Shown: positions 3,942 through 60,466, numbered from the whole stretch's first letter. The stretch is DNA of 63,806 nucleotides, filler included, from Rhabdomonas costata (GCA_019059605.1; 54 parts of 54 records of this genome joined end to end with filler, not necessarily neighbours in it); one strand, 5' to 3'. Notes: generated by a model not told the origin, from the letters alone. Numbers and translations: made by a program.

Positions 3942-4590
3942 CAAACGGGGGTCACCTCGTCGACCCTGGGGAGGCTGCTAAAATGAAGTCTGTGGTTAGG
4001 GAACTGACCCTAAACGGAATGGGAAGCGGATACGTGAACTTTCGCGAGGGGCCTCTTTGCCTTACAGATGGTGCCAGCGGCTGGCTTTCTATTTTGACCG
4101 CAGGGGTTGCCCTGGGTGCTGGTGGTGGCAACGAACACGCACAGCTGGACCTCTGTGGTGTACTCCGGCGTCCCGTTGACCACGGGGCTGGTTATCTGCT
4201 GCATTGCAAGGTCGTGCAAATCGTGTTTCCCGCTGAATTACGTCAGTTTGCCTTTGGCTCCCCCCAAGGGGATATTAGTCAGCCCCTTCGCCTCTTCTCC
4301 CATCTGCTGCAATGTAAAAAACCAACATTCGTCTGGATTTTACGGAATGGCGAATGGTACCCCCTTTAAAAACTATAGGTGCTGGCATATACATACATGC
4401 ATTTTTCCAAGCCTGCATGTGTGCGTGTCTGCACAGATGGCACGATCTTACAAGTAGTATCGTGTGTTCGGCTTGTTTTCCAGCACATGCCTGCTGACGT
4501 TGGTGCTGGTGAGGCTGTTCACGGCCCCGCTGAGCCGCCTGGTGGCGGAGGTGCAGCTGTTGTGCTCGATGGATGTGGCGCTGGTGCGGC
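3942..4590 (+). CDS. Membrane receptor (Cache-like end, TM helix, HAMP), probable receptor nucleotide cyclase; exons ~3942-4033, 4104-4210, 4484-~4590
   Basis: GT-AG splicing gives ...GSGY|GLPWVLVVATNTHSWTSVVYSGVPLTTGLVICCIAS|TCLLTLVLVRLFTAPLSRLVAEVQLLCSMDV. This resembles the GLDWxIVV-TM-PLxxL pattern of Cache-TM-HAMP sensors. Confidence 0.6.
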
Positions 4591-4835
4591 CCTTCCATCG
4601 AGCACAACAGCTGCACCACCACCACCCCAACAACAANNNNNNNNNNNNNNNNNNNNNNNNNNNNNNNNNNNNNNNNNNNNTTAATTAATTAANNNNNNNN
4701 NNNNNNNNNNNNNNNNNNNNNNNNNNNNNNNNNNNNTCTGGGGTGTTTGTGCGTAGGGTGCCTGGGTGTTGCAGCAAGGTGCCAAGTTATGACCCCTTGA
4801 TCGCGACACCAAGCGCACCCCCCAACTGCCCAGAC

Positions 4836-9350: not shown

Positions 9351-9770
9351 ACTCACCACACCCCCACACCCNNNNNNNNNNNNNNNNNNNNNNNNNNNNN
9401 NNNNNNNNNNNNNNNTTAATTAATTAANNNNNNNNNNNNNNNNNNNNNNNNNNNNNNNNNNNNNNNNNNNNGTGGTGGGGTGGTGCACACAGATCTGGAC
9501 AGCTGCGCACATCGCCAACTCAGCAACCTTTGAAGCCAGAAATCTGAGTACTGCACCTTACGGGAAATGCTCCTTGCCTGTGGGAGGGTTGGAATGAAGT
9601 GAAACAGCCCCCCCCCCCTCCGTCCCGGCTTTCGTTCCATTGTGGATCAGTGGATTGCTCCTCCCGCAGATTCTAAAAATCATATCTCTGATTGTGTATG
9701 TGATTTTCTCAATAGTGTCTTTATTCATAACTACTTGGTCACAATAAAAGTTCTTTTCTATTTATAAGAA

Positions 9771-10462
9771 ATGACAGGAAAGAAGTTATATTTTGGTTTA
9801 AAACGTTCAAAACCTGAGCCAATAGACAGGAGAGTTTCAATATGTTGTGAAGGCATGGTAGAATTACCTTCAAAGTATAGTTTAAAGGACAAAGTGACAC
9901 AAGTTTATGACCAATTATCACTGAATGCATGCAGTGCAAATTCAACAGCCAACATTTTAAATATTTGATAAAGTTCTAAAGTTCAATGTAATATTATTAG
10001 TAGGTTGTTCTTGTACTTTACCACTAGATACGTTGATAAAAATAGAATGTTACCAGTTGAAGACCCGGGCGCGACATTAAAATCTATTTTTACAGCATTG
10101 AATGACTATCATTATATTGATGAAGTGAAGTATCCATGTGAAATTGAAAAAGTTGACAGCATACCACCAAAAGAGGTCTTCGAAGAAGCAATCACCATAA
10201 ATAAATGCCCCATAACCAGTTACAAACAAATTTTACCATCTAAGTATGCTATTAAGTACATATTAGGTCATTTACATCACATACATATACAAATTTCTTC
10301 AGATTGACAAAAGAGAATGATATATTAAACTTACCACTTAAAGACGATGATTTACTCGGAAGGCATGCTGTAGTGATCACCGGATACTCAGATGAGACAG
10401 AAACATTTGAAATATTAAATAGTCACGGTTCAGATTTTGCTAATAATGGATATTTTCGACTG
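9771..10462 (+). pseudogene. Papain-like (C1A) cysteine protease, AT-rich, intronless, disrupted; virus-like
   Basis: LPSKYSL...VYDQLSLNACSAN (oxyanion Q, catalytic C), SRLFLYF, GRHAVVITGY (catalytic H) and ILNSHG...NGYF (N). There is a stop/frameshift near 9968 and a frameshift/deletion near 10300. Confidence 0.85.
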
Positions 10463-10872
10463 AAATATCCATTATTAGCAAAATCTGAACCGTGACTATT
10501 TAATATTTCAAATGTTTCTGTCTCATCTGAGTGTCCGGTGATCACAACANNNNNNNNNNNNNNNNNNNNNNNNNNNNNNNNNNNNNNNNNNNNTTAATTA
10601 ATTAANNNNNNNNNNNNNNNNNNNNNNNNNNNNNNNNNNNNNNNNNNNNGGGGAAGGGGGGGATCAATGCACGACCCCAAGCAAGCCTTGATTCCCTGTC
10701 GCTTGGGATCGCCGAGTTTCTTCCGGATTCCACAACCGCAGGAGGACAGGAAAACCGGTACTGTGGGGTGAGGAACAGCATAGCAGACGGCCCAGCAACA
10801 ATGCACTGGCCGCACCAAAGCCCCACGGGACCTCCCTCCCAACCTGTCATCGCCCCACCCGCCAAACCGGGG

Positions 10873-11628
10873 CGTTCCCTCCTCCCCTCGAAACGGTAGC
10901 GTGCGTCTTCTTATGCAGCTTGTCCAGCTCCCTCTGATCACAGACAAAAAAGGGAAAATGGGCCCCTAAGATAAAGGTCACGGCGAGAAACATCCATTCT
11001 GGTGGAGAAAACATGCCACGAACATCCGCGAGCAAACTCCTAAATTTCACCGTCGCAGGAAGGGTGCCTGAAAGCAGACATCAGCAGCAGCAGAATGATG
11101 ATGGTAATAGGAAGGACGGCAGCGAGCTTTCATTGTGAAGTGTGGGGTGGCGCATTTCAGCAGTCACGAACTCCGCCAGATTTCAGACACGAACCTGGCG
11201 CTGCTTGACCGCGTCATGCCCGTGGCGCCGTGCCTGCCGCTCCTCTCGCGTCTCGCCAAGATACAGGACCGCAGGTGTCTCCTTGGAAGGCACGGCCTCG
11301 GGTACCACTTCCAACCGTGGTTCTTCCTCCTGCGGAATGAAGACCATCGGGAGATGGGGTCATAGCGGAGAGAGGGAAGCGCGGGATCTGGCCTGAACCC
11401 TTTCACGTGCGTCGACGTCAACCTCCCGCTGTCGTTAGATTCTATTCCATGTGATTCCTTCCCCACCGTGAGGAGTGGTCCTAATCGATGATTACTGTCG
11501 CCTCACTGGCGTTATGTTAACGAGGCCCTCGGATCCCTTCATGAGTAACTTCACAACAGAGTACAAACCCTGTAGCTGCGCCATATCCCACCATAAATCC
11601 AGTCCAGGGGGTCCATCAGGTATCTTTC
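10873..11628 (-). CDS. Hypothetical protein, three probable exons
   Basis: AG/GT-bounded GC-rich segments read KIPDGPPGLDLWWDMAQLQ, EEEPRLEVVPEAVPSKETPAVLYLGETREERQARRHGHDAVKQRQ and RELDKLHKKTHATVSRGGGNAP. Confidence 0.4.
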
Positions 11629-11833
11629 CTGAGCGAACAAGAAAAAAAGGGGGCAACAACAGCAGCAACTGCAAACTGGGAAGGAAGTCCAAGAGCTCGA
11701 GAAATGAAACCTTTGAAACGAGAACCACAACCCNNNNNNNNNNNNNNNNNNNNNNNNNNNNNNNNNNNNNNNNNNNNTTAATTAATTAANNNNNNNNNNN
11801 NNNNNNNNNNNNNNNNNNNNNNNNNNNNNNNNN

Positions 11834-12917
11834 CGGGAAGGGAATCTCAAGGCCATTAGGGTACATCTGCACCACCCGTGCCAAGGCCGAAAGAGCGTGG
11901 GCTACATCTCTGGCCTCAGGGCTGGAAGCAGGCTCCGCGACCATCGTCTCCAACGGGATCTCGTCGACCGAAAACGGGGCACCCGCCCGGAGTTGCCGAA
12001 CGTACGCAGTGAAGAGCTGAGAGAGGGTCTCCAGCGGGGTTGCCGCGCCACACACCGTACTCGTGCTGGCGGAGCTCGAGCAGGCCACGACATGGCTGGG
12101 GCTGACCTCGCCGTTGAGGGCAGTGGTCTGCCGCCCAGCGAGGCTGTACATCCACTCCTAAGAAGTCAAGCAGTAAAAAAGTGGGAAAGGGGGAAAAGTG
12201 GCGTTCTACGGAAAGCAAAACAGCTGCTGGTTTCGGTTGCGAGGCACAGCAACCTGGGCTCGTTTGCGATGTGAACTTTTTTCCGTTTGACTTGGGACCC
12301 AAACAGGACTCAACTTCACACTTGACATGGTGAGGTGGTCAAATCTCAGAGGAAATACCTTTTGCCCTTTGTTTTGAAGGTTTTTTTCGCATATGCAAAA
12401 ATAAGCCGGCCCAGCCGAATCTGGAGTGGAGTGACCAGTCATATCCGAACGCACCGGGCGTCTCTCAAGGTTTGCTGCGAGACCGCAGGGTTGAACGCAC
12501 TTTTTCGGAAAGCGGTCGGCGCCACCATACGGCGCAACCATAGAAGAAGGCGAGTGAAATTCGTGAGGGGGGGGGGGGTAGGGCTAAAAGCGCACAGAAA
12601 ACCCAGTGCGAGACAAGGGAAACGGAAGTGTAGGGGAAACACCTGGTCTTTCAACGAGCTGGGGAACTCCCGTGAGGGGTGGTAGACCAGCAGTAGCCCG
12701 GCCGAGGCGTACCGCAGCACTGCCGCCGGGAGGCACTGAATCTCACAGTCGACCTGCGACACAACAAGAAAACAGCAACACTATTCGGACATGAACCGGT
12801 GCCGCGGAAACCGTTTCCCATTAAATTCGCAAAACAAGGCCATTCATACCTGCTTAGCGACGGCCTCGGTGATCAGCACAGGCACCCCAAGCGCCTTGCA
12901 GGTCACCCTCTGCAACG
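11834..12917 (-). CDS. Class III nucleotide cyclase, C-terminal part; exons 12917-12850, 12753-12643, 12157 onward
   Basis: Spliced LQRVTCKALGVPVLITEAVAKQ|VDCEIQCLPAAVLRY...LLVYHP...KDQ|EWMYSL matches the end of the cyclase fold followed by the EWMY motif typical of euglenozoan cyclases. Introns are phase-0 GT-AG. Confidence 0.7.
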
Positions 12918-14899
12918 NNNNNNNNNNNNNNNNNNNNNNNNNNNNNNNNNNNNNNNNNNNNTTAATTAATTAANNNNNNNNNNNNNNNNNNNNNNNNNNN
13001 NNNNNNNNNNNNNNNNNCACCGCAGGGTCTTTACTCCTTGAACAACGCCATACTTGGTAAGGAAAGAGAACAACTTTTCCTCATTAGAGCACAAAGCCTC
13101 CAAATCAAAATGGTGTGGTAAACATGGCTGTCAAAAACGAGAGCAGGCATCGCATCATAACCCTGGGAAGTTGCTGGGGAGGGGGGCGGACCCCCGTACG
13201 TGCATAGCGACCTAACCCCCTGCGAGAGAGATACTTTTATCTCCAGTGTGCCCAATAAGGTTAGGTGCACCGAAAAAACTTCGATCCGTGCACGAAATGT
13301 ACTAAGGTCTGAATCCTGCCCTAGCCTCCCTAGTGGTTCCGACATTGCAAAACATACCTAATACCCCCCGCCCCGACAGACCACACGCACCCCTCTTGTG
13401 CCGCGCCGCACACTTTTCGTATCTCCTGTTTCACAACAAAAATAAGAGGAAATAAGAGAGCAAAGGCCCCTCTTTTGCATAACCACTTTAGCTAGTCCGA
13501 GGCTGAATGACATTTTTTGGATCATGACGCGGACGCACCAAATAAACGTAAGGAAAACCACCTTAGGTGGCGAAGCGTGTATCCCCTGGTGTTCCAATAG
13601 GTGCAGATAATTCCAGTGTGTGGGGCATTGAACGGGTACCACTGGAACCCCGTACCCCACAAACCTAACCACACACTTGATGCACCTGGACAGTCCGCAT
13701 TTTTTCAGGGGAGGACTAGAGGTCCACTTCCCCCCCACCCTGGGCTCCCACCTTTTGATGGGGCATATGGGCCCATCGGGCCTCACCTCACACCCTTGTA
13801 GGGTTGGCCTATCCCATGTGTGCCCCGATCCAGAGTGTAAACGGGGCCTTCGGAACCCCGATTGGTGCATTTAGAGATCTTAGGGCCCGACTGCCCTCGT
13901 GGGCTTCTCAAAGCGAGTCCACAATCCCACTCCGGGTTCGGAACCGCTTTCCTGCTGGACGCGCTTGGTTGCCTTCCACTGTCCATGATGCCAGCTGGAC
14001 CTTGATTCCACTCTCCACTTGCCTGGGCGCCTCCCCCGGCCCAGACACATAAACACCGGAAATAAGCGCAACGTGCTCACCTTCACCAGCTCATCACGAG
14101 ANNNNNNNNNNNNNNNNNNNNNNNNNNNNNNNNNNNNNNNNNNNNTTAATTAATTAANNNNNNNNNNNNNNNNNNNNNNNNNNNNNNNNNNNNNNNNNNN
14201 NTTTGTTTTGTTTTTGAGGGTTTATTCGGGTATAATAAATGCGAAGGAACATTTTGCTGATTTTGCCTTGAACTGATTCCGGAAAGTACCGAGGGGAGCT
14301 CTGGAGTATCAGAGAATTACTTAATAAAACAATCCTATGCCGGGGGAATAATTCTTCATTGTCAGATTGTTTTGTCAGGCAAGTATTACAGTATATTAAC
14401 ATACATTTTAGGTCAATACAAAGCCTGAAGCAAGGCAATGCGGAGTTTTCGGTTTATCAGAAAAACGTTTTGAGATTTTCACCGAGGAAGCGGTGCTGTT
14501 GTTAGCCTCCATCTCTCCATCTCTGTCTCTCCCTGTTTCTCTGCTCCATTGCTTATTGGCGATGCCAGTTTTTCTTTCTTGTGCACTGCTGATATCCAAA
14601 AGAAAAACAAAAGTGCCTTTGTGATTACAGTTGCTAAAACCTGAGCGGTGTACCGCCATCTTCTCGCTTTCCACCCGAGTTTATACCCTGATGCGCAGGA
14701 GGGTAATAAATAGACCGCATGTTGTACACAGAATCTTTTCAGCCCCATCTCCGGCCGACGTTTAATGGGAGTGGTCAAGATCTCGGTACACAAATTTTAT
14801 GTTTGAAGTGCGTTGAGTTTTGGGGATGGTCTCAGGGTAAGATCGCCAAGGATTGGATGTATTGGATCGTTTAAAGACGGTGTGCACACATTTTCCCGC

Positions 14900-15220
14900 A
14901 GACCCCGTTTCGGAAACGCACAACAGGAGCAGCCATATCGGTCTGGTCGCGACCTCGGCCGACGTATTCCGTCGAAGTGTACTACTTAAAAAAATGTAGC
15001 AAACTTTGGCGAAAGAACGGCATAAACCATCCAAGGTCCAATTCGATAAATATCTTGGCACAAGAAAGTTTTACGACGAGATACAAACAGAGGCGGGCGC
15101 AAGCGCCAATGCCCGGGCCGAGTAAAACACGAACCCGACAAGCAAAGCTTCAAAAAAGCATGCCGGCACGGAACGCGTATTAGGAAATCTCCGCAGCCAG
15201 ATGTACCCGTAGTGCCATGT
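14900..15220 (+). mobile_element. Possible decayed non-LTR retrotransposon RT C-terminus
   Basis: Broken frames give HIGLVATSADVF, NGINHPRS and QFDKYLGT...EAGASANARA, in the order of the RT DDIAL / GLxIN / KYLG motifs. Very eroded. Confidence 0.25.
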
Positions 15221-15829
15221 GGCGGGATACCCACACGATCACCCACACATCAGCCCCAAACGGGCCAAAGCACCGGAAGACAAACNNNNNNNNNNNNNNN
15301 NNNNNNNNNNNNNNNNNNNNNNNNNNNNNTTAATTAATTAANNNNNNNNNNNNNNNNNNNNNNNNNNNNNNNNNNNNNNNNNNNNGTGGTGGGTGGATAT
15401 GGTCCTTAGTTTCTCTTGCCTGCATTGTGTTTGGCTTTGTGCCGACCACTGCAGAGTTACTTTTTGCGTAAATTTTTGAAGAGTTATCATGTCCTTCTCC
15501 CTGCCCTTCCTCTGGCATGGCTGTGTTTATGGAAGCGTTGGTTCTGTCCCAGCCTTCCCTGTCTTCGTGAGTTGATCTGAACTCTGCACTCTGATCCGTT
15601 CAAGTGGCAAAGTTGAAGTTGGGATTTCGGACATGGGCCCTGCACGGGCGTAATCCAAATGAAACGAATTGAATCGAAGCGAGCTAATCGGGTCGTTGTT
15701 GTTGGCGGAAGGAAATGCGGGCAGGGGGGAATGTTCGCACCCAGGAAAAGGGCGTACGGCAACGGCTCACAGGCCCACGAAAGCGTCGAAGGGTCAGCAG
15801 TTGTGTGGGAAATGTTGTTTTGCGCCAGG

Positions 15830-16410
15830 GGAGCTCATAGATTTCCAGTTCAGCGCTTGGGTGCTGAAATATTCACATGTGTTTGGATGACAGGAAGTGT
15901 CGGTAAGTGTCGAACGTACTCACCAACACCCCCATTTCGATGAGTTTTCCCTGTACTCACGGAGGCCATCGGAAAAGGTCCTGGACCCCTTTCGAACTTG
16001 TTCAGCAATGAAAGGAGCTTCAGCAGCAGAAGAAGGGCCGACTCTATTTTTCCAGCCTTTGCCGATGATCTTCAGATAGGGACGCAAAACCACGATTCCA
16101 GTAGTTCTGCACACGCAGGCTCGTTGAAAAGCTTAGGATCAGCAGCTTTGCCAACTTGGCCCCTTTTCTTACGTTCAGGCCAAACTCCATTTCAGCAACG
16201 CCGATGTCGAAGCCAGGCCCTCCAACCATGATTTTCTTTGTGATGGACTGCATGTTCCCGTAGAGAACCAACTTGAATGCCTCCACCTTGTGGTGGTGCA
16301 CACCCAACAAAGTGGCGATAAAAGAAAGATTGTTTCGTCCTTTTTGGCCGGTCAGTTTCCTTAGGTTCCGCGCGAAAGATGTGCGAAGGGCCCCCTTCTT
16401 TCCCAGCAAC
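15830..16410 (-). mobile_element. Merlin / IS1595(ISXO2)-like DDE transposase pseudogene
   Basis: MVGGPGFDIGVAEMEFG resembles IGGPGxxVEIDESxFG. After a frameshift, CRTTGIVVLRPY...PFIAEQVRKGSRTFSDGLREY resembles PIIxxxIxPGSxIxSDxWxAY. The first catalytic Asp is lost. Confidence 0.7.
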
Positions 16411-16585
16411 GAGCAGTCCGCGTTTCGGCATACAACCGTTGACTCTGATGGGGATGCAGTTAACCCCGANNNNNNNNNNNNNNNNNNNNNNNNNNNNNNN
16501 NNNNNNNNNNNNNTTAATTAATTAANNNNNNNNNNNNNNNNNNNNNNNNNNNNNNNNNNNNNNNNNNNNGGTGTTGGGGTGGTAC

Positions 16586-16754
16586 CCGGGGGACACAGCA
16601 GGTTCTTAATTGTCTTGGAGACCATTGCGCAACTACGGTGCAACACAAACTCCGCACCGTCCCTGCTGCATAGCCGAACCATCGCTGTGGGGTCGAACGG
16701 CACCTTGGCCTCCTCGACCTGAGCGCCCGCCTTGGTCTTCTTCTTGTCCGCCAT
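16586..16754 (-). CDS. ELOC: Elongin C (Skp1/BTB fold), first exon
   Basis: MVRLCSRDGAEFVLHRSCAMVSKTIKNLLCPPG resembles elongin C [32 protein letters not shown]. GT donor at 16585. Confidence 0.8.
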
Positions 16755-18371
16755 TTTTCAGTGCCTCAGTGAAGTTTGTCCTTCTCCAACTTTCTCGCAA
16801 AATCCAAAAACTGAGGTGAACGTGGGTGATTCCGCGGCGAAAGATAACAAAAGAAATGGCTGGTAGGAATCAAACGACCTTTTTTGAAAAGGCAACAACA
16901 CACAGAAACGCCGCAGCACAGTCTTACCATGCCCTCCCTCTCTGTGTTTGTAAACTGTTTTCCATCAGCATTACTGAGGTAGAAAGCAGGTGCATGTTCT
17001 GCTGCTCAGCCATTAACGAGGCAAAGCCAAGCCTCACGCATTAGATCAGAAACCTAAGGGAAGACGTCGGCCATCTCGAGTTCAGTGCAGCTGATATGAG
17101 CGGTCGAAGTAAAAGAGCTGCGCCCGTTTAATGGCTTTGCTGGAAGTTTTGGCGTGCCTTGTTGGTGTGGCTGCAGCTGCTGTCTGATTGCAGTAGGTTA
17201 CCTTGAGGCTGCTGTGTCGTCTGAGCTGGTTTAGTGGTTGTGGGCCTGCAGTATTTCGAGCAGACTGCCATCGCCAGATTCCAGGTCTCTTTCGTTTTCC
17301 CCTCCACGTAATCAAACTATTGCAGCCGTGCTACCCACGCCTCAAGAACCAGTGACGAACGCTATGCAAAAACGTTGGATGCGAATTGACACAAAGCTGT
17401 GAGAAGCCGGGAGGAAAAATATCGGTTGGATTTTAAAAGGGAACCCCCCCACCAACAGAAAAATTTCGCGCATACGAATGTTCGCATTCGATGAGAATGA
17501 ATCGAGCCTGCCCAACACTGGAACGAATGCGGTTTAAGAAACCACATAGACAATTTCGCACGAAGATATGCAGACATGCAGACAATACAACTCGCCCATG
17601 AAGACAATGGAAGCATCCAATTTCCCAAGTGACATGACCGCACCCCCCCCCACNNNNNNNNNNNNNNNNNNNNNNNNNNNNNNNNNNNNNNNNNNNNTTA
17701 ATTAATTAANNNNNNNNNNNNNNNNNNNNNNNNNNNNNNNNNNNNNNNNNNNNGGTGTTGTGGATCAAAGCTCACAAAGACTACGTACTAGTGTCCCTCA
17801 GTCCAAAAGGGTTGGTCACCCAGCACGGTGCAGGGTGACCAACCCTTTTGGACTGAGGGACACTAGTACGTAGTCTTTGTGAGCTTTGATTCACGCCATT
17901 CCGAACGCGTTAATTATCAGTTTTTTCAGTTGTACTGTACCATTCTCTCAATGAGCGTCTCCGCGACGGCTGAACCGGGGGGGGGGGGGAGGTGAGCAGT
18001 GCACTACAGGTTGCAGCTAACGTTCCAGCGGAGACAAAGCACGGGAGTTTAACCATCGCCAGCGACTTCTCTTTCATTTAGAGTCACAACTGTGTATCTC
18101 ATTATTAATGTTCAATAAGCAACAGTTCAACTGGACCGCGCTGCAACGCGAAATAGATTGATTAATTGGTGTAATAATCCAGGTATCCATGCCTTGCAGC
18201 TTATGTCTGCTGCTGACACCTTTTTCAAAAGTTCCAGGTGGAACATCAGAAAAATATATCAGAAATGTGTCGAAAAAATCCTTGGCACTGCACAACGAGC
18301 AGCACAAGCAGCGAAAGAAAAAGGCATGGCCGGAGGAGCGATAGATGTGCAAGGTTGATCAATGCACTCAC

Positions 18372-18626
18372 CAATGAAAAAGACCCCAGTTGCGACTGGA
18401 GAGAGCAGCAAGTCCTGGCTCTCCGCCACCGCCTTCACAGTGTAGGTGTTCCCGGGGGGAAGCAGGATGGGTTGCAGAAAGGCCAGCGTGGTTTCCCCGC
18501 TTGGCGAAGGCTCGGTGCCGTCCAGCGTGTAGAACAGCTGCGCCCCAGGGGTGGCGCTGCTCAGCGTCACCTTGGTCGTCCGGGAGTAGCTTCCGGGCAA
18601 TGGGGAGAAGGCTGGGGCCTCCGGAG
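18372..18626 (-). CDS. Exon encoding a CHB_HEX_C_1/Fn3-associated domain
   Basis: PEAPAFSPLPGSY...VTLSSATPGAQLFYTLDGTEP...PILL...TVKAVA matches the IYYTxDGxxP Ig-like domain. CAG acceptor and GTGAGT donor. Confidence 0.8.
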
Positions 18627-20624
18627 CTGCGCGAAGAAAATACGGCATAAACGTTAGGAAAATAATATTTAAATATTTATCGCTAACGCCATTTTCCTGG
18701 TCACGCAAAAGGTGTGCGCACGCAGAACAGATGTGCCCTATGTGTGTGTGACGTTAGCGTGTTCCGCATCCCTCCAGCTTAGTCCTTCTTTACCATCCCT
18801 CTCTCATTCAGACAAGCGCAGAAACATCTCCTGAGCNNNNNNNNNNNNNNNNNNNNNNNNNNNNNNNNNNNNNNNNNNNNTTAATTAATTAANNNNNNNN
18901 NNNNNNNNNNNNNNNNNNNNNNNNNNNNNNNNNNNNGCAGCCCCGCCAGGACCCCGGCACTCGCCCCTCAGCGTTCTGCCACCCATGCTGCATCCTGTGA
19001 GTGGCAGCCCCTTCTCCCCGTGAACCCCGACGGGCCTGTGGACACCCCTGAAGGGGCGGTGGCGAAGATAGGCTGTGACTGTCCTGGATAGTCCATGAAA
19101 TGACTTTTCCCGGCCCCATGTGTGCAACACAGGTCTGTCTGTGTGTATGTGTGCATGCGGGAAGAGGAAGAGGAAGGAGGGTGCCTTTGATTATTTGCTA
19201 GGGTGCTGGTGGTGAGCACTGTGAGGCATCTGTCAGATGTTCCACTTTTGGGTGATTCTCCCACAGGGATTTGGGTGAGAATTGTAAAAGACTGTGCGTG
19301 TGCGTCAGATGTGTAATGCATGAGAGGGCCGTGGCCCTCTTCTGTGCAACATTCTCCACTGTCGAATTCACCGTGCCTGTAACTTGTGCTCTTTGTGCCG
19401 CCCGTGCGACTGTTCCTCTTCTTCCTTCCGTGCAAAATGTGGGTTCCCAAATCACCCCATCTGTGCACTCCAATGGCATTTTGTTATGCCGCACTCAAAG
19501 AGGACGGCGGTCGGCGGACATATTACACAGCTTACGGTGCTATGGCTATGGCCTTGCGGTGGGGGGTGACGGTTTACCTTTAGTAACGCTCACCAGTAGG
19601 ATCGGTTTTTTTACTGGACCATACGTTAACAAAGTCACGCGGACTGGCCTCCTCTGCGGAGCTGGACTGGTTTCACTCGTCCGCCTAAATCCACCCCCTT
19701 CCACCCTTAGTCTATAGTTGATTTGAGGTGTAAACCCAAAATTCTACAGGTATAGGTGCAGTGGCACTGTTTTCCTAACCCCCATACTCTAATAAAAATA
19801 ATTTCAAGAGTTCTGGAACAATTTACCTCACCTTTTTCAAAGGTAAAATTACAAAAAAAAAATAGTGTATGTAGTGTACCAATTGTAACCGGTACCCCCC
19901 CCGAGCCAATTGTTGACCCAGTTCCAACCACGTGTGCTCGGGGCGTTAGCCGGCAGGTTAGTGTCATTGGGCCTTCAGGGGATGGCCCACCCTCCCAGGC
20001 TGAGCCTGTACCCCACCACANNNNNNNNNNNNNNNNNNNNNNNNNNNNNNNNNNNNNNNNNNNNTTAATTAATTAANNNNNNNNNNNNNNNNNNNNNNNN
20101 NNNNNNNNNNNNNNNNNNNNTTGGTGGAAAGGGAGACTGCAGTTCGCATGCGGTCTCGGAGAATATGAAGGCAGCGCTACAGAGACGGAAAGTCAAGGAA
20201 GGACATGACCAATAAAATATTGCCCTCCGACTCTCCCCGCCCCCTCCTCGCGTACAGCTGGAAAATCAAAGGGGCCAGTTTAGGGGGCAAGGATGGTGTG
20301 CGAGCCTTTTTGATCATTTCTTCACAGTATTCTCTGCCACCAGTGACAGCGCCAGTATATCCCAGCGGATAACGGGAGTGATGACACTGACAAAAAGCCG
20401 AGAAGCAGAGAGAGAGAGAGAGAGAGCGAAAGAGTTCGGAATAATGTAGCACAGGGAAGAGCAGAGGACGCAGAGGAGTGGGAGAGCACAAAACAGCAAC
20501 CGCGAAACCCTGGAAGTGGGAGAAACAGGGGTGTTTCCTGTACAAAGTGAACAAAGAATCCAGAAACCACCCTGCGAAGAGAAAGCAAAGACCGACGCAA
20601 CCCTCCACCATCCACCTTCCACAC

Positions 20625-21204
20625 CCCAACCTCTGAACCCAACCTCTGAACCCAACCTCTGAACCCAACCCCAAGACCTGACCCACCATGACGACTGAAT
20701 CGCGAACTCACCACCCTTACCCTTACCCTTACCCTTACCCTTACGCAGAAACTCACGACACGCAAACCCTGACCCTCACCCTGACGACAGAAACGCGAAC
20801 CCTGACCCTCCATCCTGCGACCCTCACACCCTCACACCCACCACGACCTCAGAATCCACACCCTGACCCTCCACACCCTCCACGAAATCCACGCAGCAAC
20901 TCCACGACCCTCCACGAACCCTCCGTCACGACCATCCTCACAACCCAGACCCACCCTCCAACTCACGATCCAAACCCTCGCATCCAAACCCTCGCAACCA
21001 ACACCCTGACTTTCGCACGAACCCTCACACGTTGACCCTGACCCTCGACCCTCACGCAGACCCTCAACCCACAGACCCTCCGACTCAGAATGCCAATGCA
21101 AATCCCACGCCACCGTCACCCTCCACCCTCACCCTCAATCCTGACGCCGATTCCTGACCCACACCTCAGATCCTGACCCTGACCTCCGAAACCAAACCCT
21201 GACC
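20625..21204. repeat. Degenerate telomere-like C-rich array including (CCCTTA)5 at 20714-20743
   Basis: Five perfect CCCTTA units, many CCCTGA/CCCTCA variants and a 13-bp AACCTCTGAACCC triplet at about 20628-20666. Confidence 0.75.
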
Positions 21205-21334
21205 NNNNNNNNNNNNNNNNNNNNNNNNNNNNNNNNNNNNNNNNNNNNTTAATTAATTAANNNNNNNNNNNNNNNNNNNNNNNNNNNNNNNNNNNNNNNN
21301 NNNNGTGGTGGGTGTGTTTGGTTGTGGTGGTAGA

Positions 21335-22245
21335 GCAAAAAACCGGAATTGTTGCCGCAGCGAAAAGAAAAATTTGTTTATCCTGAAGATATCATAAAAC
21401 GTCGTGAGCAATTCAAGAAACTGTTTGAGCAGGATAAAACGAACAACAAGTTCAATTTGCCATGGGTTATGCTGAGTTTGTACACCATGCAGCCACCTTT
21501 ACGGCAAGACTACAACGATGTGGAAATTGTAAATGTACTGCCGAAGGAAAAACAAAATTATCTATTACGGAAAAACAATAAATTTTTCGTTGTAGAAATG
21601 ATAAAGTCATCAAAAGTCATGGTCCTGATCAATTTGAGTTATCAAATGAGTTGAATAATGTAATACACGAGTCATTGGATGCATTTCCAAGGAAATATAT
21701 ATTGAGCACGCAACGGGATGGTGATCGTCCTATTGGAAAACAAGGGTTCGAGTCCCTTCTGAAACAGTGTTTTAGCCCCCAAAAAGTGTCCGTTGATGTA
21801 CTACGTTCTGCCACATAACTCACTTTTATTCTGATCCACGTAAGACTTTGCAGGATAAAGATGAACTGGCACGACTTATGCGTCACTCAGCTACCATTGC
21901 CCAGCGCGAATACCAGAAAATTGATGTCAGTAACGTTGGCCATCCCGACAACTTAGTCATGACGTCCACCATGATGTCATCACCAACAGAAGTTCCACCA
22001 CCAGTTATACAAAAGAAAGAATACTTCAACTTGAAGAAGTGGACAAAAAGACTGCCGTGGAGGACACAAAGATGAAATTAATAAAAAAAAAAAGCAAGAG
22101 ATGAATATCAAGCAAAAAAGATGAAATTTTACGAAGACACATATTGTGGAACCTCAACCGAAGTCAAAATACCGCAATCCCAAAACAAACATCAATTGAT
22201 AAATATAAAATAAAATATGATGTAAGTAAAAGATGTTGGGTCTAA
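21335..22245 (+). pseudogene. Tyrosine recombinase of PLV/virophage (OLV11-like) type, frameshifted
   Basis: LSLYTMQPPLRQDY (Arg I); after a frameshift RNDKVIKSHG (Lys) and VSVDVLRSA (Arg II); after another frameshift ITHFY and LARLMRHSATIAQREYQK (His, catalytic Tyr). C-terminus EILRRHILWNLNR...IDKYKIKYD...WV ends at stop 22245. AT-rich and intronless. Confidence 0.85.
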
Positions 22246-22494
22246 TGGGTCAAATAATGTAACCAAAATATATGATAAACATCATTTTACCTATGCTTTA
22301 TTACAAAAAATGAATATACCTCGGTGTAGGAAGAGGTTCTTCACCATAAGTAAAATGATGTTTATCATATATTTTGGTTACACACCCACNNNNNNNNNNN
22401 NNNNNNNNNNNNNNNNNNNNNNNNNNNNNNNNNTTAATTAATTAANNNNNNNNNNNNNNNNNNNNNNNNNNNNNNNNNNNNNNNNNNNNGTTGT

Positions 22495-23406
22495 GTTGTG
22501 ATAACTGGTGAAAACTGTTTCATATGATAGGTTGCTTTGATACTACGTGGTACGTAGGACTTTCCGATATAGCACCTTATTAAGTATAGCTTCATGTCCG
22601 ACATTGAGACGTTAGTAGTACTATTAGAAAATCCACTGTTTATTTGTGACTGTGTATGTTCCTAATACTGAACTAACAGAACCAACTACTTGTATAAGGT
22701 TTCTGTACCACGATTGCGAAACAGAAAAAATTAAATCAACTCTCTTACCCACTCTATAGTGAAGTAATTCATCACAGTAAAATAGAGGAATCAGGATTTG
22801 AATGTTGAGACGATTTATATTTTTCTTATCAAAGTTGGACATGTGATACGTTTACTAAAATTCCAGAAAATGCTGTCATATTAGCCCCAGTTGTTACTCC
22901 AAGACTTGAACCCAGTTTGTAATAATTATCTTAAAGAACATTTACATCATCATCTTGATCCTCTTGACTCATTACTTTTGTTTTTGAAGTTGAGTTAACC
23001 GTGTCTTGCTTCAACTTGGATTCAAAAAGCATTCTATATAAAGTTGAGGTTGTACTTGCAAACTGATAATTATTAACATAAGTAGAACTTATCTCTCTCA
23101 CACTTGACTGTATCGAAAATAGCACCTAACGGTTTTGTGTTAGGTGAGGAATTGGTATTCCTTGAGGAGCGGCACGTGTACCATTATTAATAATTGGTTC
23201 AAGTGTCGTTTGCGTTCCATCTTCTCGAACTTGTGTAATATGAAGTTGAACAGTTAAATAAGAGTTTTTCCCATTGTATACTATATCTTCGGGTTGGTTG
23301 TGAACTTAATATTGTTCCCCCCAACGTTAGTTGAAGAACTAACAGAGGGGTTTGACGGTATCTCAGGCATATCACAGCCATAAACTGCAGAGTATGGAAT
23401 AGCCAT
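22495..23406 (-). pseudogene. Probable Polinton-like-virus major capsid protein (double jelly-roll), N-terminal half, disrupted
   Basis: ATG at 23406 follows TATAATAAA. Merged frames read EIPSNPSVSSSTNVGGNNIKF / QPEDIVYNGKNSYLTVQLHIT / LFSIQSSV...NNYQFASTTSTLYRMLFES / RLNIQILIPLFYCDELL...RVDLIFSV / NVSMSDMKLYLIRC, a beta-strand pattern resembling PLV/Polinton capsids. Several stops and frameshifts. Confidence 0.55.
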
Positions 23407-26400
23407 TTTATTATACTCTTGGAAGAGAAAATAAAATTTTGATATTATCAATAAGAATCTACCAGCAGATGGGAAATGTATGAATATCATTCAAGAATTT
23501 GTATCTCATATTCCGACACCAAAACCGAAACGAGAACCCAAAAAGAAGGCTGAGCCAAAAGAGAAAACCCAACNNNNNNNNNNNNNNNNNNNNNNNNNNN
23601 NNNNNNNNNNNNNNNNNTTAATTAATTAANNNNNNNNNNNNNNNNNNNNNNNNNNNNNNNNNNNNNNNNNNNNTTTTGTTTGTTTGCTGCCTTGCTCTAC
23701 TGTTTGTTTGTTTGGTTGGTTTGGTTTGGAACTGAGGGTGAGCCTTGCAACGCAAGGTCGGGGAGGGGGGCCGGGAACGGTAAAAGTCGGTGTTTCCAGC
23801 CTGGTTAGGCCAGTGCGGGTCCGCAAGGCCCGACAGGGTGACAGGGTGCCCATCTTTCCACCACTTGATCTTTATTGCCATTGCTCCTGCTTCCGCAATT
23901 GTGCCGGAAGGGTAAAGCCGCTTTCCTCCCTGTGTTAATCACTGTGGCGCCGGAGGTATGGCGAGACTGGCGCGCACGGGAAACAACAGGAAACAGTTCA
24001 ATAGAAGTCGCTGATGGGTTTCTTGGAGTCCGGTGCGGCAAGAGATTCGAGCCTCTTCGGTGACTTTGCGGTGCCGCTCGCTGCATTCCGCATTTCGTTG
24101 GTAGGTGCAGTCGAGAGTCGCAGTCTTGGCTTCCAAAGGCCCGTCATTGATGCTCTGTGTCCGCTGAGTGTGCCACGGCTGAACCGGATAGTCTGCGGGG
24201 TGGAGCCGGCACCGTGGATTTTGGCCTTATTGGCGCTGAGCGCCAGGAATGATCCATTGGAGGAAGATTGCAGCGCACCAAACGTTTTGACCCCAAAATG
24301 AAATCAAATTTGCGGTGCAAAGCTCCTGGTTCTCACTCATTTTAATTGATTCCATAGTGTCCATCCCATTTAATTGTGTGTTGCGCGGGCGGTGGTCACA
24401 AATGCACGTTGCTTATCCAGTCACCGAAAATCAGATGGGACTCAGCCCTCAGACAATGTTTTAACCAAGTGACCGGTAACCGGATTGCTAGAGCATGTCG
24501 CCAAAGGTGTCCAGGAGTAGGGCGTGGCCCCATAACGGAGGCACATGACTGCGTACAGCTTGTCCTTGTCCGCCTTTTTGCCACAGTCAGTGTAGCAATT
24601 GCAGGTGTCACAAACCGGCAGCCACATGATCCACTTTTAACAGCAGCGAAATTAATCTGCACATAGTGGGCTGCGGAGCGCACACGCTGCTGTACAGGAA
24701 GTTGAATGTGTTGTGGACAGAGCGTTGTGGCGTTCGTGTTGTGCAGTTCAAAAAACANNNNNNNNNNNNNNNNNNNNNNNNNNNNNNNNNNNNNNNNNNN
24801 NTTAATTAATTAANNNNNNNNNNNNNNNNNNNNNNNNNNNNNNNNNNNNNNNNNNNNGTGTGGTGGTGTTAATTCTCTGCCTTCTGTTCTTCCGCAGTGC
24901 TGGAGGTCAGATGCGGATGTCGAACAGCTACAGAGACGTGGTCTGCCCATACATGTGTTGGGGGCACAGGCACGCATGAATGCTACGAAAAATGCGAGGG
25001 TCATGTGGATCTATAGATCTCCCGTCCACCCCGAAGACATCGGAGACAAAGAGCCGTAATCGTTTTCTCCTGGCTTGTGTGTGACCCTGCGGGTGCAAGA
25101 CTTGCCTTTTTATTGGGGTTTTTAACGCCACTGGAAAATAGGGCAACCACTAGAGGCCGCAACTTTCGAAACGCACGTGATTCGTAAAGAAGTAAAAAGT
25201 TGCATACTACATGCAAAAGGATGCATACTCAATAAGATTAGATTCCCACTCGTGTACACCAAGATGGGCGGGTCCTGGGCCTCACCCTTCCTCTCAGACT
25301 CCTGAAGGGGCCGCGCCCCTGTCGGAGTATTTATTTGTCCACTTGTATTGTAGAATTGTTCGCAACAAAACTGCCCTTTTGTTTCCCCCCTTTTGGCTGT
25401 TTACTCTCCCATGAAGAGCCGATGGCCTGGCGGAAGTATTGCTCACTGCTTTAACCGCGGTGTAGGACTCAGGCAAAAACGAATGTATCTGACATTGTTG
25501 TTGCACTGGTTTTGATCCGCACAATAATCGTTCAACAGACACCCAGTGAAGATTTGCATGCTGAGGAGGAGAAGGGGTGGCGGGTTTCCATCCCTTTGTA
25601 AAACACGCTGGACAACCTCGCCTATGGACATTGTCCTGTTGACTTTTCCGCAGGGCGGAACGAGAAAAAAAAGGAGAAAAGGTAGGGTTCAGGCCTGTGA
25701 ACAAAAAAGAACAAGGGGCGTCGGGGGTTGTCGCGACAGGGTGGTTGGTGTGGTTAGTCCGTTTATTTGGTTTTCTCTGGGACAAAACACGACACACAGG
25801 AAACACAAGCAAACAAAGGACCTCCGCTGGTGCCCGAAGTTCACTGAATGCTCCACGCTTTATTAAACTCTGTGCGACCCCCCAGGATTTCGAAAGGAAA
25901 GGGATTTTTCGTCACAAACCTAATTTGGTCCACCCCCCACCNNNNNNNNNNNNNNNNNNNNNNNNNNNNNNNNNNNNNNNNNNNNTTAATTAATTAANNN
26001 NNNNNNNNNNNNNNNNNNNNNNNNNNNNNNNNNNNNNNNNNGTGTGGGGGGGTTTTTGCGCCAGCACCGCCCGGCACCGCGCGTAGTCCCCCCCTTCGCT
26101 GCCCACGTATACCGCCCGCCGCGGCTGCTCTCGCTCCGCCTGCCGCAAAAACCCTCACACTATCACACTTCCAGGGGTCTGAGAAAGAGGTCGTGCTTGC
26201 AGCGACCGAAGAAAGTTCTGCCCCAGGAACCACCGGAGGGATCCTGATGATCTTGGCCGTCATTGTGTACAGTAATGGAAAGGGATGGTGAGGTGATAGG
26301 AGGGGCTGCTGCAAAGCAGTGCAATGGGGCAAATGGGAGTGACGGTCAGGACGAGGTACCAGCGGTGAACTTGCCTACCAGATATCAACTGGTGAATTTA

Positions 26401-33144: not shown

Positions 33145-33468
33145 TTTCGGATGCTTTGCAAACAGAGGCTTACACCGTTGGTGCGCGTGCACATGGATTT
33201 GAATGTGCCCGATTTTCCCTGCACATCATCATCTGCACAAGACAATGCCCCGCGAGAGCAGCTCGATTTCCCGCCGTCGGTGAGGGATAGTAAATGCATG
33301 ATAATATTTAGCCATCACTCTGCACCCCACTCGCATGGATGTTTCGGATGCTTTGCAAACAGAGGCTTACACCGTTGGTGCGCGTGCACATGGATTTGAA
33401 TGTGCCCGATTTTCCCTGCACATCATCATCTGCACAAGACAATGCCCCGCGAGAGCAGCTCGATTTCC
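33145..33468. repeat. 127-bp direct repeat (33145-33271 and 33342-33468)
   Basis: Two identical copies of TTTCGGATGCTTTGC...CTCGATTTCC with a period of 197 bp. Confidence 0.9.
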
Positions 33469-34084
33469 TGCCAAGGAACAATCCATGTGCCGACCGGTGG
33501 GGAGATGTAACTTGCAAAAAGTACGATTTCAGCTAAAAGCCCGACATATCCAGGAAGTTCAGGCAAGATAGGGTATATCCTGGAGGGAAAAACTCCAAAA
33601 CACCCTAAACACCCCAAAATTCATCATGCTCGGTCGCTTGCTTCACCCTTCTCTCACCTTGGTGCACCTACAACCACAGACACACAGAGGCTCTTACAGG
33701 CATCCCGCACAAACGGGGTACCCAACAGTAGCGGCGGCGCAGAGCAGCGGGCTATACTGCCTGTGAAGATGAGGCTGCTTAGCCTTTTTCACGTTACTCC
33801 CGTCTCTCGACTCTTTCTGTTGTTGTTGGTCAATTTTTGTCTGCACTTTGTGTTTTATTTGTGTGCCTTTCACCTTTCACCTCCTTTTTGCTCGCGTTCC
33901 CCCCATGTTTATTAGCAATCCAGCGCTGTGTCATGCAACCATGATCTTTAACTGTAAAAAAAAAAAATCACAAGAATGAAAAGTCACGATAATTACGACA
34001 AAACAATCCTATCATTATTCCGCACAAGCATAGATAGCATTGAGAGTGCATAAAGCACAGGAGCCGCTCCTTCGCAGGCTTCAC

Positions 34085-41069: not shown

Positions 41070-42235
41070 TGACAAAGGATGCAAAAGGTAGCGGGGAAGG
41101 GACGAGGTACAGGAAAAACGAATTAAAAGAACGCGGCTGCAGAAGAACGTGCGTTTCTTTAAACTCACAGGGCCCCACGCCCTGTCGGACTCTCTGCTGT
41201 CATGCCAGGACGTCGGGAATTTGCGGACTAAGCAAAGCCACCCGGTTTCCGGTCCCGCTTGTGCGTTGCTGATAACTTTGTCAGTGTACATTCGGGGCGG
41301 TTTTCTCCTAATTTTTCTTATGAACAAAAAAANNNNNNNNNNNNNNNNNNNNNNNNNNNNNNNNNNNNNNNNNNNNTTAATTAATTAANNNNNNNNNNNN
41401 NNNNNNNNNNNNNNNNNNNNNNNNNNNNNNNNGGGGTTTTGGGAGCACTTGGGGAAGCGTAGTTGGGGGCAAGTGTCCGGGAAGGAAGAAGCATAACTGG
41501 TTCAGTCCGGGGAGGTTGGAGTCGCCGACTCGCCCTGAGCCAGCCCTCTCCTCTAGACTTTCGCCGATGCAGGGAGCGGAAGAGAGTGGCGCAGTGTGCG
41601 AGCTCAAGGGCGGGGGGGTAGTACCGCTGCTCTCCGGTTTAGGGGCTGAGAGAAAGAATAGGAAAGACGAAAGAGAGAAGGAAAGGGCTCAAAGAAGAAT
41701 TCCGGCGGATGTTTGGGTATGCGACAAGGTTCTATAGACGGAAACGCTGGAAGCCATCGGAAGCCATGGGATGAACGTTTAACGCCTGGGACTGGGGCTT
41801 TCGTCCAGCAGAAGCACTCGCGGGGCACCCTGCGGGAAGATTCCATGCGTCTCCAAAGGATGCGATGCAAAAAGGCTAGTCAAAGGAATTGCGCCACTCC
41901 ATGAGGGGCGCCCGCTCTGCATAAGTGTGAGAGGTAAGACAGAGAGAGAGGAGGGAATAGATGTGAGCCGAAACATACTGTAATCATGGCATCCCGCCGA
42001 GATCAAGGGGCTCACTGGCTGCACCGCCAACTCCGCAGTACCTTGGAAAACAGAGGGAAGGAGTGAACGATACCCCATTATCGACGTTGAAATTCTTTGT
42101 GACAACAAAGAATTGAAAAAGCACTGCAAAAATGTTAACTGCAACATACGTTCGCATGCAGTAAACTCAGTGCATACCAGGACCAAGAGGAACCGACGTC
42201 GGCCGTTCGGGAACAAGTCCAACCGACCGCCCCAC

Positions 42236-60257: not shown

Positions 60258-60466
60258 NNNNNNNNNNNNNNNNNNNNNNNNNNNNNNNNNNNNNNNNNNN
60301 NTTAATTAATTAANNNNNNNNNNNNNNNNNNNNNNNNNNNNNNNNNNNNNNNNNNNNGGTTGGTGGGAAGGAGATGAAGTCTAGTCAACGAGTCGATTCT
60401 ACGAGTGCACTCAACTACGCCAGCATTAGGTCCAGTGGAATGTGAGGGAGGGGGTACAGCCTCGAC

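What the first reader, a model, noticed from the sequence alone, without database searches (positions are those of the whole stretch)
9670..23573. Candidate decayed endogenous Polinton-like virus spread over three contigs (YR integrase, capsid-like gene, papain protease)
Seen: contigs at 9670-10462, 21305-22389 and 22490-23573 are much more AT-rich than host exons, intronless, and carry genes broken by stops and frameshifts. Known: many PLVs and virophages integrate via an OLV11-type tyrosine recombinase rather than an rve integrase and encode a double jelly-roll capsid. Inferred: three such fragments among 54 random contigs suggest an abundant, degenerating endogenous virus family in this euglenozoan-like host, possibly an undescribed lineage. 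The contigs are not physically linked here, so membership in one element is unproven.
Basis: partly seen in the sequence, partly recalled or inferred. Interest (0 to 1): 0.8.

Follow-up and report, generated by a model that had tools for sequence, protein, structure and literature searches.

The report
Broken Polinton-like virus gene fragments
Three short AT-rich pieces of this fragmented eukaryote assembly carry a capsid gene, an integrase gene and a protease gene of a small Polinton-like DNA virus, all broken as assembled, but whether they sit inside the host genome is not shown.

Summary
Contigs 9472-10549, 21305-22389 and 22490-23573 have 35-37% GC, against 46-59% for 50 of the other 51 contigs. 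They carry intronless genes that are broken.

The gene guesses are right:
- The capsid-like gene belongs to a family whose AlphaFold model is a double jelly-roll major capsid protein (Foldseek 1.7e-17 to the PBCV-1 capsid; Sputnik and mavirus also hit).
- The integrase has a tyrosine-recombinase fold (Cre, 7.9e-5).
- The protease is a papain-family (C1) peptidase.

Each gene has intact relatives in AT-rich metagenome contigs (44-88% identity). Capsid and protease relatives lie side by side on a 19-kb Polinton-like contig that carries an rve integrase.

"Endogenous" and "decayed" are not shown:
- The assembly consists of about 1.08-kb whole-genome-amplification amplicons with frequent chimeras. 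The single GC-rich/AT-rich junction (about 9665) could therefore be an artefact.
- The damage is almost all ±1 frameshifts (11), plus one nonsense codon and one complex lesion. There is no clear excess of changes at family-invariant residues.
- Host contigs keep long open frames, so a general indel error rate is unlikely.
- Linkage of the three contigs, and the host's identity, remain untested.

This is a new member of a known kind. Interest is modest.

The parts
9472..9665 (.). GC-rich (52-62%) 5' part of the protease contig. It is either host-like flank or a chimeric amplicon partner. It contains a C11 run at 9608-9618.
9771..10455 (+). Papain-family (C1) peptidase gene, residues 1 to about 236 of about 252. 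Catalytic Q, C, H and N are kept. Lesions: TGA TAA at 9966-9971, next to the direct repeat 9970-9976/9978-9984; a frameshift near 10275-10286 with about 7 codons missing; the C-terminus is lost at the fold-back.
10369..10549 (.). Terminal fold-back: arms 10369-10455 and 10463-10549, 87 nt, 2 mismatches, 7-nt loop. It is an amplification artefact, not a viral terminal repeat. Similar fold-backs occur in host contigs.
21334..22245 (+). Tyrosine recombinase gene, residues 90-392 of about 392. The N-terminus is cut by the amplicon end. 231 of 298 aligned residues are identical to P0039. There are five frameshifts (about 21594, 21815, 22056-22059, 22094 in an A11 run, 22114 in an A6 run) and no in-frame stop. 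The natural stop is kept.
22258..22382 (.). 38-nt inverted repeat (22258-22295 / 22345-22382) abutting the terminal primer-like run. It is probably a fold-back artefact.
22491..23406 (-). Double jelly-roll major capsid protein gene, N-terminal about 300 of about 490 residues, with ATG at 23406-23404. 127 of 289 aligned residues are identical to P0069. There are five frameshifts (about 23281-23299, 23126-23141, 23092-23113, 22836-22851, 22628-22643) and one nonsense TAA (22931-22933) at a conserved Tyr position.

Best explanation
The three AT-rich contigs are amplicon-sized fragments of a Polinton-like (Preplasmiviricota-type) small dsDNA virus or element.

What each contig carries:
- One carries the N-terminal 300 residues of a double jelly-roll major capsid protein.
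- One carries residues 90-392 of a Cre-fold tyrosine recombinase, which would be the integrase.
- One carries a papain-family C1 peptidase. In related metagenome elements this gene sits two genes downstream of the capsid gene.

As assembled, none of the three can make a full protein. There are 11 frameshifts, one nonsense codon, one complex lesion and one internal deletion in about 2.5 kb.

Most likely these are dead or dying copies, plausibly integrated in the genome of the sampled eukaryote.

Shown: the gene identities, the homology to intact environmental relatives, capsid-protease synteny in relatives, and the lesions as they stand in the assembly.

Inferred: that the lesions are biological, that the copies are integrated, and that the three contigs come from one kind of element.
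For: Gene identities:
- The protease has 27 metagenome homologues of 64 candidates (best 5e-64, 66% identity, ~252 aa). 20 of the 27 carry PF00112. Catalytic residues are kept.
- The recombinase piece has 20 homologues of 22 candidates at 58-88% identity. Full length is about 390 aa.
- The AlphaFold model of P0039 (pLDDT 77.6) hits Cre, XerA, lambda Int and Tn1549 Int (best 7.9e-5).
- The capsid contig is hit by 25 of 145 members of the family found with the L015 550-aa protein.
- The model of P0069 (pLDDT 89.1, pTM 0.89) hits the PBCV-1, SGIV, Sputnik and mavirus capsid proteins (1.7e-17 to 5e-14) and virophage, adomavirus and NCLDV capsids in BFVD.
- The nearest Atlas clusters are Preplasmiviricota.

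Relatives:
- Their loci have 26-36% GC, like these contigs.
- L015 (19 kb) carries the capsid gene, a 149-aa gene, the C1 peptidase, an rve integrase, and PLA2-like and HNH domains.
- L003 shows the same capsid-to-peptidase order.

Lesions are specific to these contigs:
- The 51 other contigs hold 9 open frames of 198 aa or more, against 0.68 in shuffles (maximum 4 in 100 shuffles). Homopolymer density is similar in both sets.
- Duplicated arms inside amplicons show 0 indels.
- Several lesions are not homopolymer slips: an 8-nt repeat, a ~7-codon deletion, and TAA at a conserved Tyr.

Junction: there is a sharp composition switch at about 9665, 100 nt upstream of the protease ATG. In relatives another gene ends 10-35 nt upstream of that ATG.
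Against: Integration is not demonstrated:
- The contigs are whole-genome-amplification amplicons. 35 of 54 start with a G/T-only run of 8 nt or more, 29 of 54 end with an A/C-only run, and none has the reverse orientation.
- Self-inverted repeats at contig ends appear in 7 of 54 contigs in the all-against-all blastn; one further contig carries a direct duplication.
- A C11 run lies 50 nt from the junction. The junction may therefore be a chimera.

The damage is almost purely indels:
- The recombinase violates 6 of 82 family-invariant columns (members violate 1-10). Two of the six lie at frameshift sites.
- The capsid gene violates 4 of 17 (members 1-4).
- Only the protease is mildly raised, at 7 of 57 (members 0-4).
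- This pattern fits very recent inactivation, or artefacts, better than long decay.
- At least 2 recombinase frameshifts lie in A11 and A6 runs, and several others could be C3 to C2 slips.

Other points:
- Passages read in Bellas et al. 2023 (PMC10120064) report that many stop codons in such insertions vanished after error correction.
- The recombinase is linked to the other two genes nowhere.
- No A32 ATPase, penton or polymerase was found in the window or recognised by Pfam in L015.
Confidence: 0.5

Rival explanations
1. The DNA comes from a free, infecting or ingested Polinton-like virus or virophage that was co-amplified with the cell. The frameshifts arose from low-template amplification, polymerase slippage or assembly of mixed variants. 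The GC-rich 5' end of contig 9472 is an amplification chimera.
For: - The contigs have amplicon ends and chimeras are frequent.
- The damage is dominated by indels, with invariant residues kept.
- Some frameshifts lie in A11, A6 or C-runs.
- Close intact relatives exist in the environment at up to 88% identity.
- Passages of PMC10120064 report assembly-artefact stops in such elements.
Against: - Host contigs in the same assembly keep many long open frames and have similar homopolymer density.
- There are no indel differences between duplicated arms.
- Some lesions are not slip-type: an 8-nt repeat, a ~7-codon deletion and a nonsense substitution.
- A lesion density of roughly one per 200 nt across the ~2.5 kb of gene sequence is high for polymerase error.
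Confidence: 0.3
2. The fragments are endogenous viral copies, but in the genome of a different organism present in the sample (prey, symbiont or a co-sorted cell), not of the main GC-rich eukaryote.
For: - The sample looks mixed. Among 148 non-viral open frames, Pfam finds CHB_HEX_C_1 and Fn3_assoc, which I recall as mainly bacterial, beside eukaryote-type split genes.
- There is a fourth AT-rich contig with no recognisable gene.
Against: - The only flank available (9472-9665) has the GC content of the main contig set.
- No other AT-rich eukaryote-like coding contig is seen in the window.
Confidence: 0.1
3. The fragments come from a giant virus (Nucleocytoviricota) rather than from a Polinton-like element.
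For: - A 30%-identical C1 peptidase sits on an IMG/VR contig with asparagine synthase, PCNA and Ulp1 protease, which is giant-virus-like content.
- One of the three nearest Atlas clusters for the recombinase is labelled Nucleocytoviricota.
- The capsid fold is shared with NCLDV capsids.
Against: - The close relatives of the protease (56-66% identity) and the capsid family lie together on a 19-kb contig with an rve integrase and dense small genes.
- The nearest Atlas clusters for the capsid are Preplasmiviricota.
Confidence: 0.05

Closest known systems
Endogenous Polinton-like viruses and virophages of protist genomes (Bellas et al. 2023, PMC10120064; passages read)
   Same: - It has a double jelly-roll capsid gene plus a tyrosine-recombinase or rve integrase.
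- Its GC content differs from that of the host.
- Its genes appear fragmented in short-contig assemblies.
   Different: - Only three unlinked 1-kb fragments are available here.
- No terminal repeats, ATPase, penton or replication gene are seen.
- Integration is not shown.
- The main text of that paper does not mention euglenozoans (0 occurrences). Its supplements could not be seen.
Gossevirus / VC35 groups of Polinton-like viruses (bioRxiv 10.64898/2026.06.19.733378, section 5 read)
   Same: The related metagenome contig L015 combines a capsid gene, a cysteine protease, a phospholipase-like domain and an rve integrase. The paper gives this gene content for these groups.
   Different: - The window copy has a tyrosine recombinase, not rve.
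- The protease here is papain-family C1. [quoted passage not shown]
- Group membership (the GKS1 profile, ATPase phylogeny) was not testable here.
Virophage capsid proteins (Sputnik 3j26, mavirus 6g43) and PBCV-1 Vp54
   Same: They share the double jelly-roll fold. Foldseek gives 1e-15, 5e-14 and 1.7e-17, with TM 0.48-0.57.
   Different: - Sequence identity is 9-12%.
- No Pfam or PDB sequence-level match was found.
Cre / Xer / lambda-Int tyrosine recombinases
   Same: - They share the two-domain fold.
- The R...K...R...H...Y catalytic pattern can be read in the alignment.
   Different: - Sequence identity to the solved recombinases is 11-15% and TM scores are only 0.3-0.4.
- There is no Pfam Phage_integrase or PDB sequence-level match.
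- The family has a C-terminal extension of about 100 residues after the catalytic Tyr; part of it (residues 288-321 of P0039) is modelled with low confidence.
Xylellain-type papain-family peptidases (PDB 3ois)
   Same: - 3ois is the best solved relative of the window protease (E 0.018). The alignment runs through the catalytic Cys region.
- Homologues carry PF00112.
   Different: - It is a distant relative.
- The viral family is about 252 aa, with no recognisable prodomain match.
- Its gene lies beside a capsid gene.

Membership tests
Polinton-like virus / small Preplasmiviricota element | Double jelly-roll major capsid protein | tested here: met
   - The window gene aligns to P0069 (127 of 289 identical; summed tblastn 4.7e-50).
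- The P0069 model (pLDDT 89) hits PBCV-1, Sputnik and mavirus capsids.
- The fold was modelled on the homologue, not on the broken window copy.
Polinton-like virus / small Preplasmiviricota element | A32-like packaging ATPase and penton (minor capsid) protein | tested here: not met
   - None of the other 51 contigs matches any ORF of loci L001-L016 or any retrieved family member (370 queries).
- Pfam recognises no ATPase in L015.
- Only about 3 kb of element sequence is available, so absence is uninformative.
Polinton-like virus / small Preplasmiviricota element | Integrase (tyrosine recombinase or rve) | tested here: met
   - The recombinase on contig 21305 has a tyrosine-recombinase fold.
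- The relatives L015 and L002 carry rve instead.
- The recombinase contig is not linked to the capsid or protease genes.
Polinton-like virus / small Preplasmiviricota element | Genome of 15-40 kb, often with terminal inverted repeats | not testable with these tools
   - Contigs are 1.08 kb.
- The whole assembly is not held.
- L015 (19 kb) shows no terminal repeat longer than 11 nt in the stored part.
Endogenous viral element | Host-virus junction supported by reads | tested here: inconclusive
   - There is a composition switch at about 9665.
- The amplicon assembly has frequent chimeras, and a C11 run lies nearby.
Endogenous viral element | Signs of neutral decay | tested here: inconclusive
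   - There are 13 lesions.
- Invariant-column violations are within or just above the range of intact members.
Tyrosine recombinase | Cre-like catalytic fold and the R-K-R-H-Y residues | tested here: met
   - Foldseek's top hits are all tyrosine recombinases.
- R146, K182 and R249 are invariant and H276 is nearly invariant in A5.
- The 'REY' tyrosine is kept in full-length members and in the window.
Tyrosine recombinase | Pfam Phage_integrase match; OLV11-type subgroup | tested here: not met
   - There is no Pfam or PDB sequence-level hit at E of 1 to 10 or better.
- OLV11-type membership was not tested, because no reference sequence was at hand.
Peptidase C1 (papain family) | PF00112 match and the Q/C/H/N catalytic residues | tested here: met
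   - The window's C-terminal piece scores 18.3 bits, below the 20.7 cut-off.
- 20 of 27 homologues carry PF00112.
- Q, C, H and N are present in the window copy.

The most novel reading that the evidence does not exclude
These are integrated, recently inactivated copies of a Polinton-like virus lineage that pairs a tyrosine recombinase with a papain-family (C1) peptidase placed next to the capsid gene. The lineage was not found in IMG/VR. It would reside in a host group, possibly euglenozoan, for which such insertions are not described in the main text of the 2023 survey.
Probability: 0.15. Interest if true: 0.5.

Novelty: new member of a known kind. Interest (0 to 1): 0.3.

Why it matters
If the copies are truly integrated, they add a host and a lineage to the already large catalogue of Polinton-like virus insertions in protists. 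They would also point to a C1 peptidase as a recurrent neighbour of the capsid gene in one group of these viruses. If they are not integrated, they record a virus associated with a single sampled cell. Neither outcome changes how these elements are understood. The practical lesson is that amplicon-based single-cell-type assemblies can mimic both junctions and decay.

Tried and rejected
Searches that found nothing or were not possible:
- The first protease search used the wrong length class ('longer') and found nothing.
- IMG/VR scans with single window pieces, the recombinase alignment, P0069 and P0047 and a five-member capsid alignment gave no relatives.
- Two capsid alignments were too diverse to scan with.
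- Pfam and PDB sequence searches found nothing for the capsid family, nothing for the recombinase family, and nothing for the 1186-aa and 1376-aa proteins of L015.
- The whole genome is not held.
- Earlier-findings look-ups returned nothing.

Readings considered and rejected:
- Alternative genetic code. After frame correction only one true in-frame stop remains in the capsid gene and none in the recombinase.
- CpG depletion as a mark of silencing. CpG observed/expected is 0.56-0.84 in the three contigs, inside the range of the other contigs (0.56-1.03).
- The terminal inverted repeats as viral ends. Host contigs show the same fold-backs, and the arms abut primer-like runs.
- Homology of the region upstream of the protease to the 149-aa neighbour gene of relatives. 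Only short, non-collinear chance matches were found.
- Two stray weak capsid-family hits to the other two contigs (E 8e-4 and 0.007) are taken as chance.
Full report
**What the window is**

The window is 54 contigs of 1072-1085 bp joined by artificial spacers. Of the 54 contigs, 35 begin with a G/T-only run of at least 8 nt and 29 end with an A/C-only run. None has the opposite arrangement. I read this as the mark of degenerate-primer whole-genome amplification; the kit type is recalled and comes from no call. Each contig is therefore roughly one amplicon.

Seven contigs, host-like ones included, carry self-inverted repeats at their ends, and one more has a direct duplication. Internal primer-like and poly-G/C runs are common. 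Chimeras are thus frequent in this assembly.

**The observation**

Contigs 9472-10549, 21305-22389 and 22490-23573 have 36.5, 37.0 and 35.1% GC. Fifty other contigs have 46.0-58.8%. One more, 43801-44884, has 38.9% and carries no recognisable gene. All three flagged contigs carry genes that are collinear with intact homologues but broken.

**Protease (9771-10455, + strand)**

- Read with X at the stops, it finds 27 metagenome proteins among 64 candidates. The best is 5e-64 at 66% identity and about 252 aa. Twenty of the 27 carry Pfam PF00112.
- The best solved relative is the cysteine protease 3ois (E 0.018).
- On its own, the window's C-terminal piece scores just below the Pfam cut-off (18.3 against 20.7 bits).
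- The catalytic Gln, Cys, His and Asn are present.
- Lesions: TGA TAA at 9966-9971, in a length-variable loop beside a 7-nt direct repeat (9970-9976 / 9978-9984); a frameshift near 10275-10286 with about seven conserved codons missing; and loss of the C-terminus where the contig folds back on itself.

**Recombinase (21334-22245, + strand)**

- A 79-residue piece finds 20 proteins among 22 candidates at 58-88% identity. Full-length members are about 390 aa.
- Neither Pfam nor PDB sequence searches recognise the family.
- An AlphaFold model of P0039 (pLDDT 77.6) hits Cre (7.9e-5), XerA, lambda integrase, Tn1549 integrase and XerH. TM scores are low (0.3-0.4) for this two-domain protein.
- The R, K, R, H and Y catalytic positions can be read in the alignment and in the window copy.
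- The window copy covers residues 90-392 and 231 of 298 aligned residues are identical to P0039. It has five frameshifts, no in-frame stop, and the natural stop is kept.
- Two of the shifts lie in A11 and A6 runs.

**Capsid gene (22491-23406, - strand)**

- Three weak but collinear, in-frame matches to a 550-aa ORF of metagenome locus L015 led to an exhaustive search with that ORF. It returned 145 proteins at E of 1e-3 or better.
- Twenty-five of the 145 hit this contig. The best is P0069, with a summed tblastn E of 4.7e-50 over residues 2-296.
- The AlphaFold model of P0069, built with 32 family members, has pLDDT 89.1 and pTM 0.89.
- The model matches the PBCV-1 capsid (1.7e-17), the SGIV capsid, Sputnik (1e-15), mavirus (5e-14), p72 and D13. 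In BFVD it matches adomavirus LO7, virophage capsids and NCLDV capsids.
- The protein is a double jelly-roll major capsid protein. The nearest Atlas clusters are Preplasmiviricota (a lead only).
- The window copy has 127 of 289 aligned residues identical to P0069. It has five frameshifts and one TAA at a conserved Tyr position.
- The apparent in-frame TAG, and the second TGA TAA, are out-of-frame readings between paired shifts.

**Relatives and linkage**

- A metagenome scan with the protease alignment returned 15 loci of 26-36% GC.
- L015 (19 kb) encodes an ORF of 1186 aa or more, a PLA2-like domain protein, the 550-aa capsid protein, a 149-aa protein, the C1 peptidase, an HNH endonuclease, a 1376-aa protein and an rve integrase.
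- L002 shares the order from the peptidase to rve.
- L003 carries a capsid C-terminus upstream of the same peptidase.
- Capsid and protease are therefore neighbours in two lineages of a Polinton-like-sized element. This supports placing those two window contigs in one kind of element.
- The recombinase family matched none of the 16 loci and nothing in IMG/VR. Its membership rests only on similar GC content and a similar lesion density.
- No ATPase, penton or polymerase was recognised.
- A distant (30% identity) C1 peptidase lies on a giant-virus-like IMG/VR contig with asparagine synthase, PCNA and Ulp1 protease.

**Are the lesions real?**

Evidence against a general technical cause:
- The 51 other contigs hold nine open frames of at least 198 aa, against 0.68 in shuffles (maximum 4 in 100 shuffles). 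They hold 32 of at least 150 aa, against 6.1 in shuffles.
- Their homopolymer density is like that of the three contigs.
- Duplicated arms inside amplicons differ by substitutions only.
- Some lesions are not slippage-type.

Evidence for a technical or very recent cause:
- The damage is nearly all indels.
- The recombinase violates 6 of 82 invariant columns, two of them at shift sites. Intact members violate 1-10, apart from the divergent P0047, which violates 48 of 130.
- The capsid gene violates 4 of 17 (members 1-4).
- The protease violates 7 of 57 (members 0-4).
- Bellas et al. 2023 report, in passages I read, that stop codons in such insertions often vanished after error correction, and that reads from many near-identical copies can create false consensus.

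I put about two to one on the lesions being biological or copy-mixture effects rather than plain error.

**Is it endogenous?**

The only direct hint is the switch from 52-62% to 22-40% GC at about 9665, 100 nt upstream of the protease ATG. In relatives a gene ends 10-35 nt upstream of that ATG. No remnant of that gene is detectable in the window. In an assembly this prone to chimeras, and with a C11 run 50 nt away, this is not proof.

The host is a eukaryote with introns: an ABCG-like gene is split at 60358-61440. No RNA marker was found, and "euglenozoan-like" could not be tested.

**Comparison with what is known**

Endogenous Polinton-like viruses and virophages with tyrosine-recombinase or rve integrases are widespread in protist genomes (PMC10120064, passages read). 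A 2026 preprint (section 5 read) describes the Gossevirus and VC35 groups, which carry cysteine protease and phospholipase genes. L015 resembles that gene content.

A search for 'polinton-like' with 'papain' found 8 papers, of which 5 were listed. In the one I checked, 'papain' refers to an OTU domain. I therefore found no description of a C1 peptidase beside the capsid gene, but this is two searches, not proof of absence.

**Verdict**

This is a new member of a known kind. Interest is 0.3.

Noticed in passing
all 54 contigs, e.g. 9472-9485, 21305-21331, 52076-52103: Thirty-five of 54 contigs start with a G/T-only run of at least 8 nt and 29 of 54 end with an A/C-only run; none has the reverse. 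Contigs 21305 and 52076 share the same first 17 nt. The contigs look like degenerate-primer amplification products with the primers left on.
   Followed up: partly
1187-1248, 4541-4626, 17760-17894, 50600-50789, 59179-59272; 33145-33472: Self-inverted repeats at the ends of host-like contigs, and a 131-nt direct duplication in contig 33145 (99.2% identical). These are amplification chimeras, the same kind as at the end of the protease contig.
   Followed up: partly
43801-44884: A fourth AT-rich contig (38.9% GC) has no long open frame. It has no similarity to any of the 370 virus-related queries or to the other AT-rich contigs.
   Followed up: partly
60358-61440 (- strand): An ABCG-type transporter gene is split by an apparent intron of about 240 nt. 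The Walker A exon ends near 60849, and the 'GGILTINGLPRH...GFVPQ' exon lies at about 60420-60540. The main organism therefore has spliceosomal introns.
   Followed up: no
42170-42514 (- strand): The C-terminal part of a histidine-kinase-type ATPase domain reads open from the contig end. It is probably the source of the HATPase_c hit (4.8e-15) among 148 non-viral frames.
   Followed up: no
non-viral contigs, exact contig not located: Pfam families CHB_HEX_C_1 (5.9e-12) and Fn3_assoc (9.6e-11) were each hit by one open frame. I recall these as mainly bacterial, so the assembly may hold DNA of more than one organism.
   Followed up: no
L015:7281-10738 and L003:3-2331: In two metagenome lineages a papain-family C1 peptidase lies two genes downstream of the double jelly-roll capsid gene, with a 149-150-aa gene between them. 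This is not the adenain-type protease usually listed for Polintons and virophages.
   Followed up: partly
L015:4367-5092, 11886-12482, 17009-18028: The 19-kb relative encodes a parvovirus-type PLA2-like domain (PF08398, 2.1e-8), an HNH endonuclease and an rve integrase. Pfam recognises no A32 ATPase and no polymerase. The ORF of 1186 aa or more has a Walker A motif near its cut C-terminus.
   Followed up: partly
L001 (IMG/VR contig, 20.6 kb held): A giant-virus-like contig (asparagine synthase, PCNA, Ulp1 protease, BspA-type repeats with a Hint domain) carries a 357-aa C1 peptidase that is 30% identical to the family.
   Followed up: partly
23435-23573 (+ strand): A short open frame starting 'MNIIQEF...' runs divergently from the capsid gene to the contig end and is rich in Lys, Pro and Glu. 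It has no match. In L015 the gene upstream of the capsid gene is on the same strand instead.
   Followed up: no
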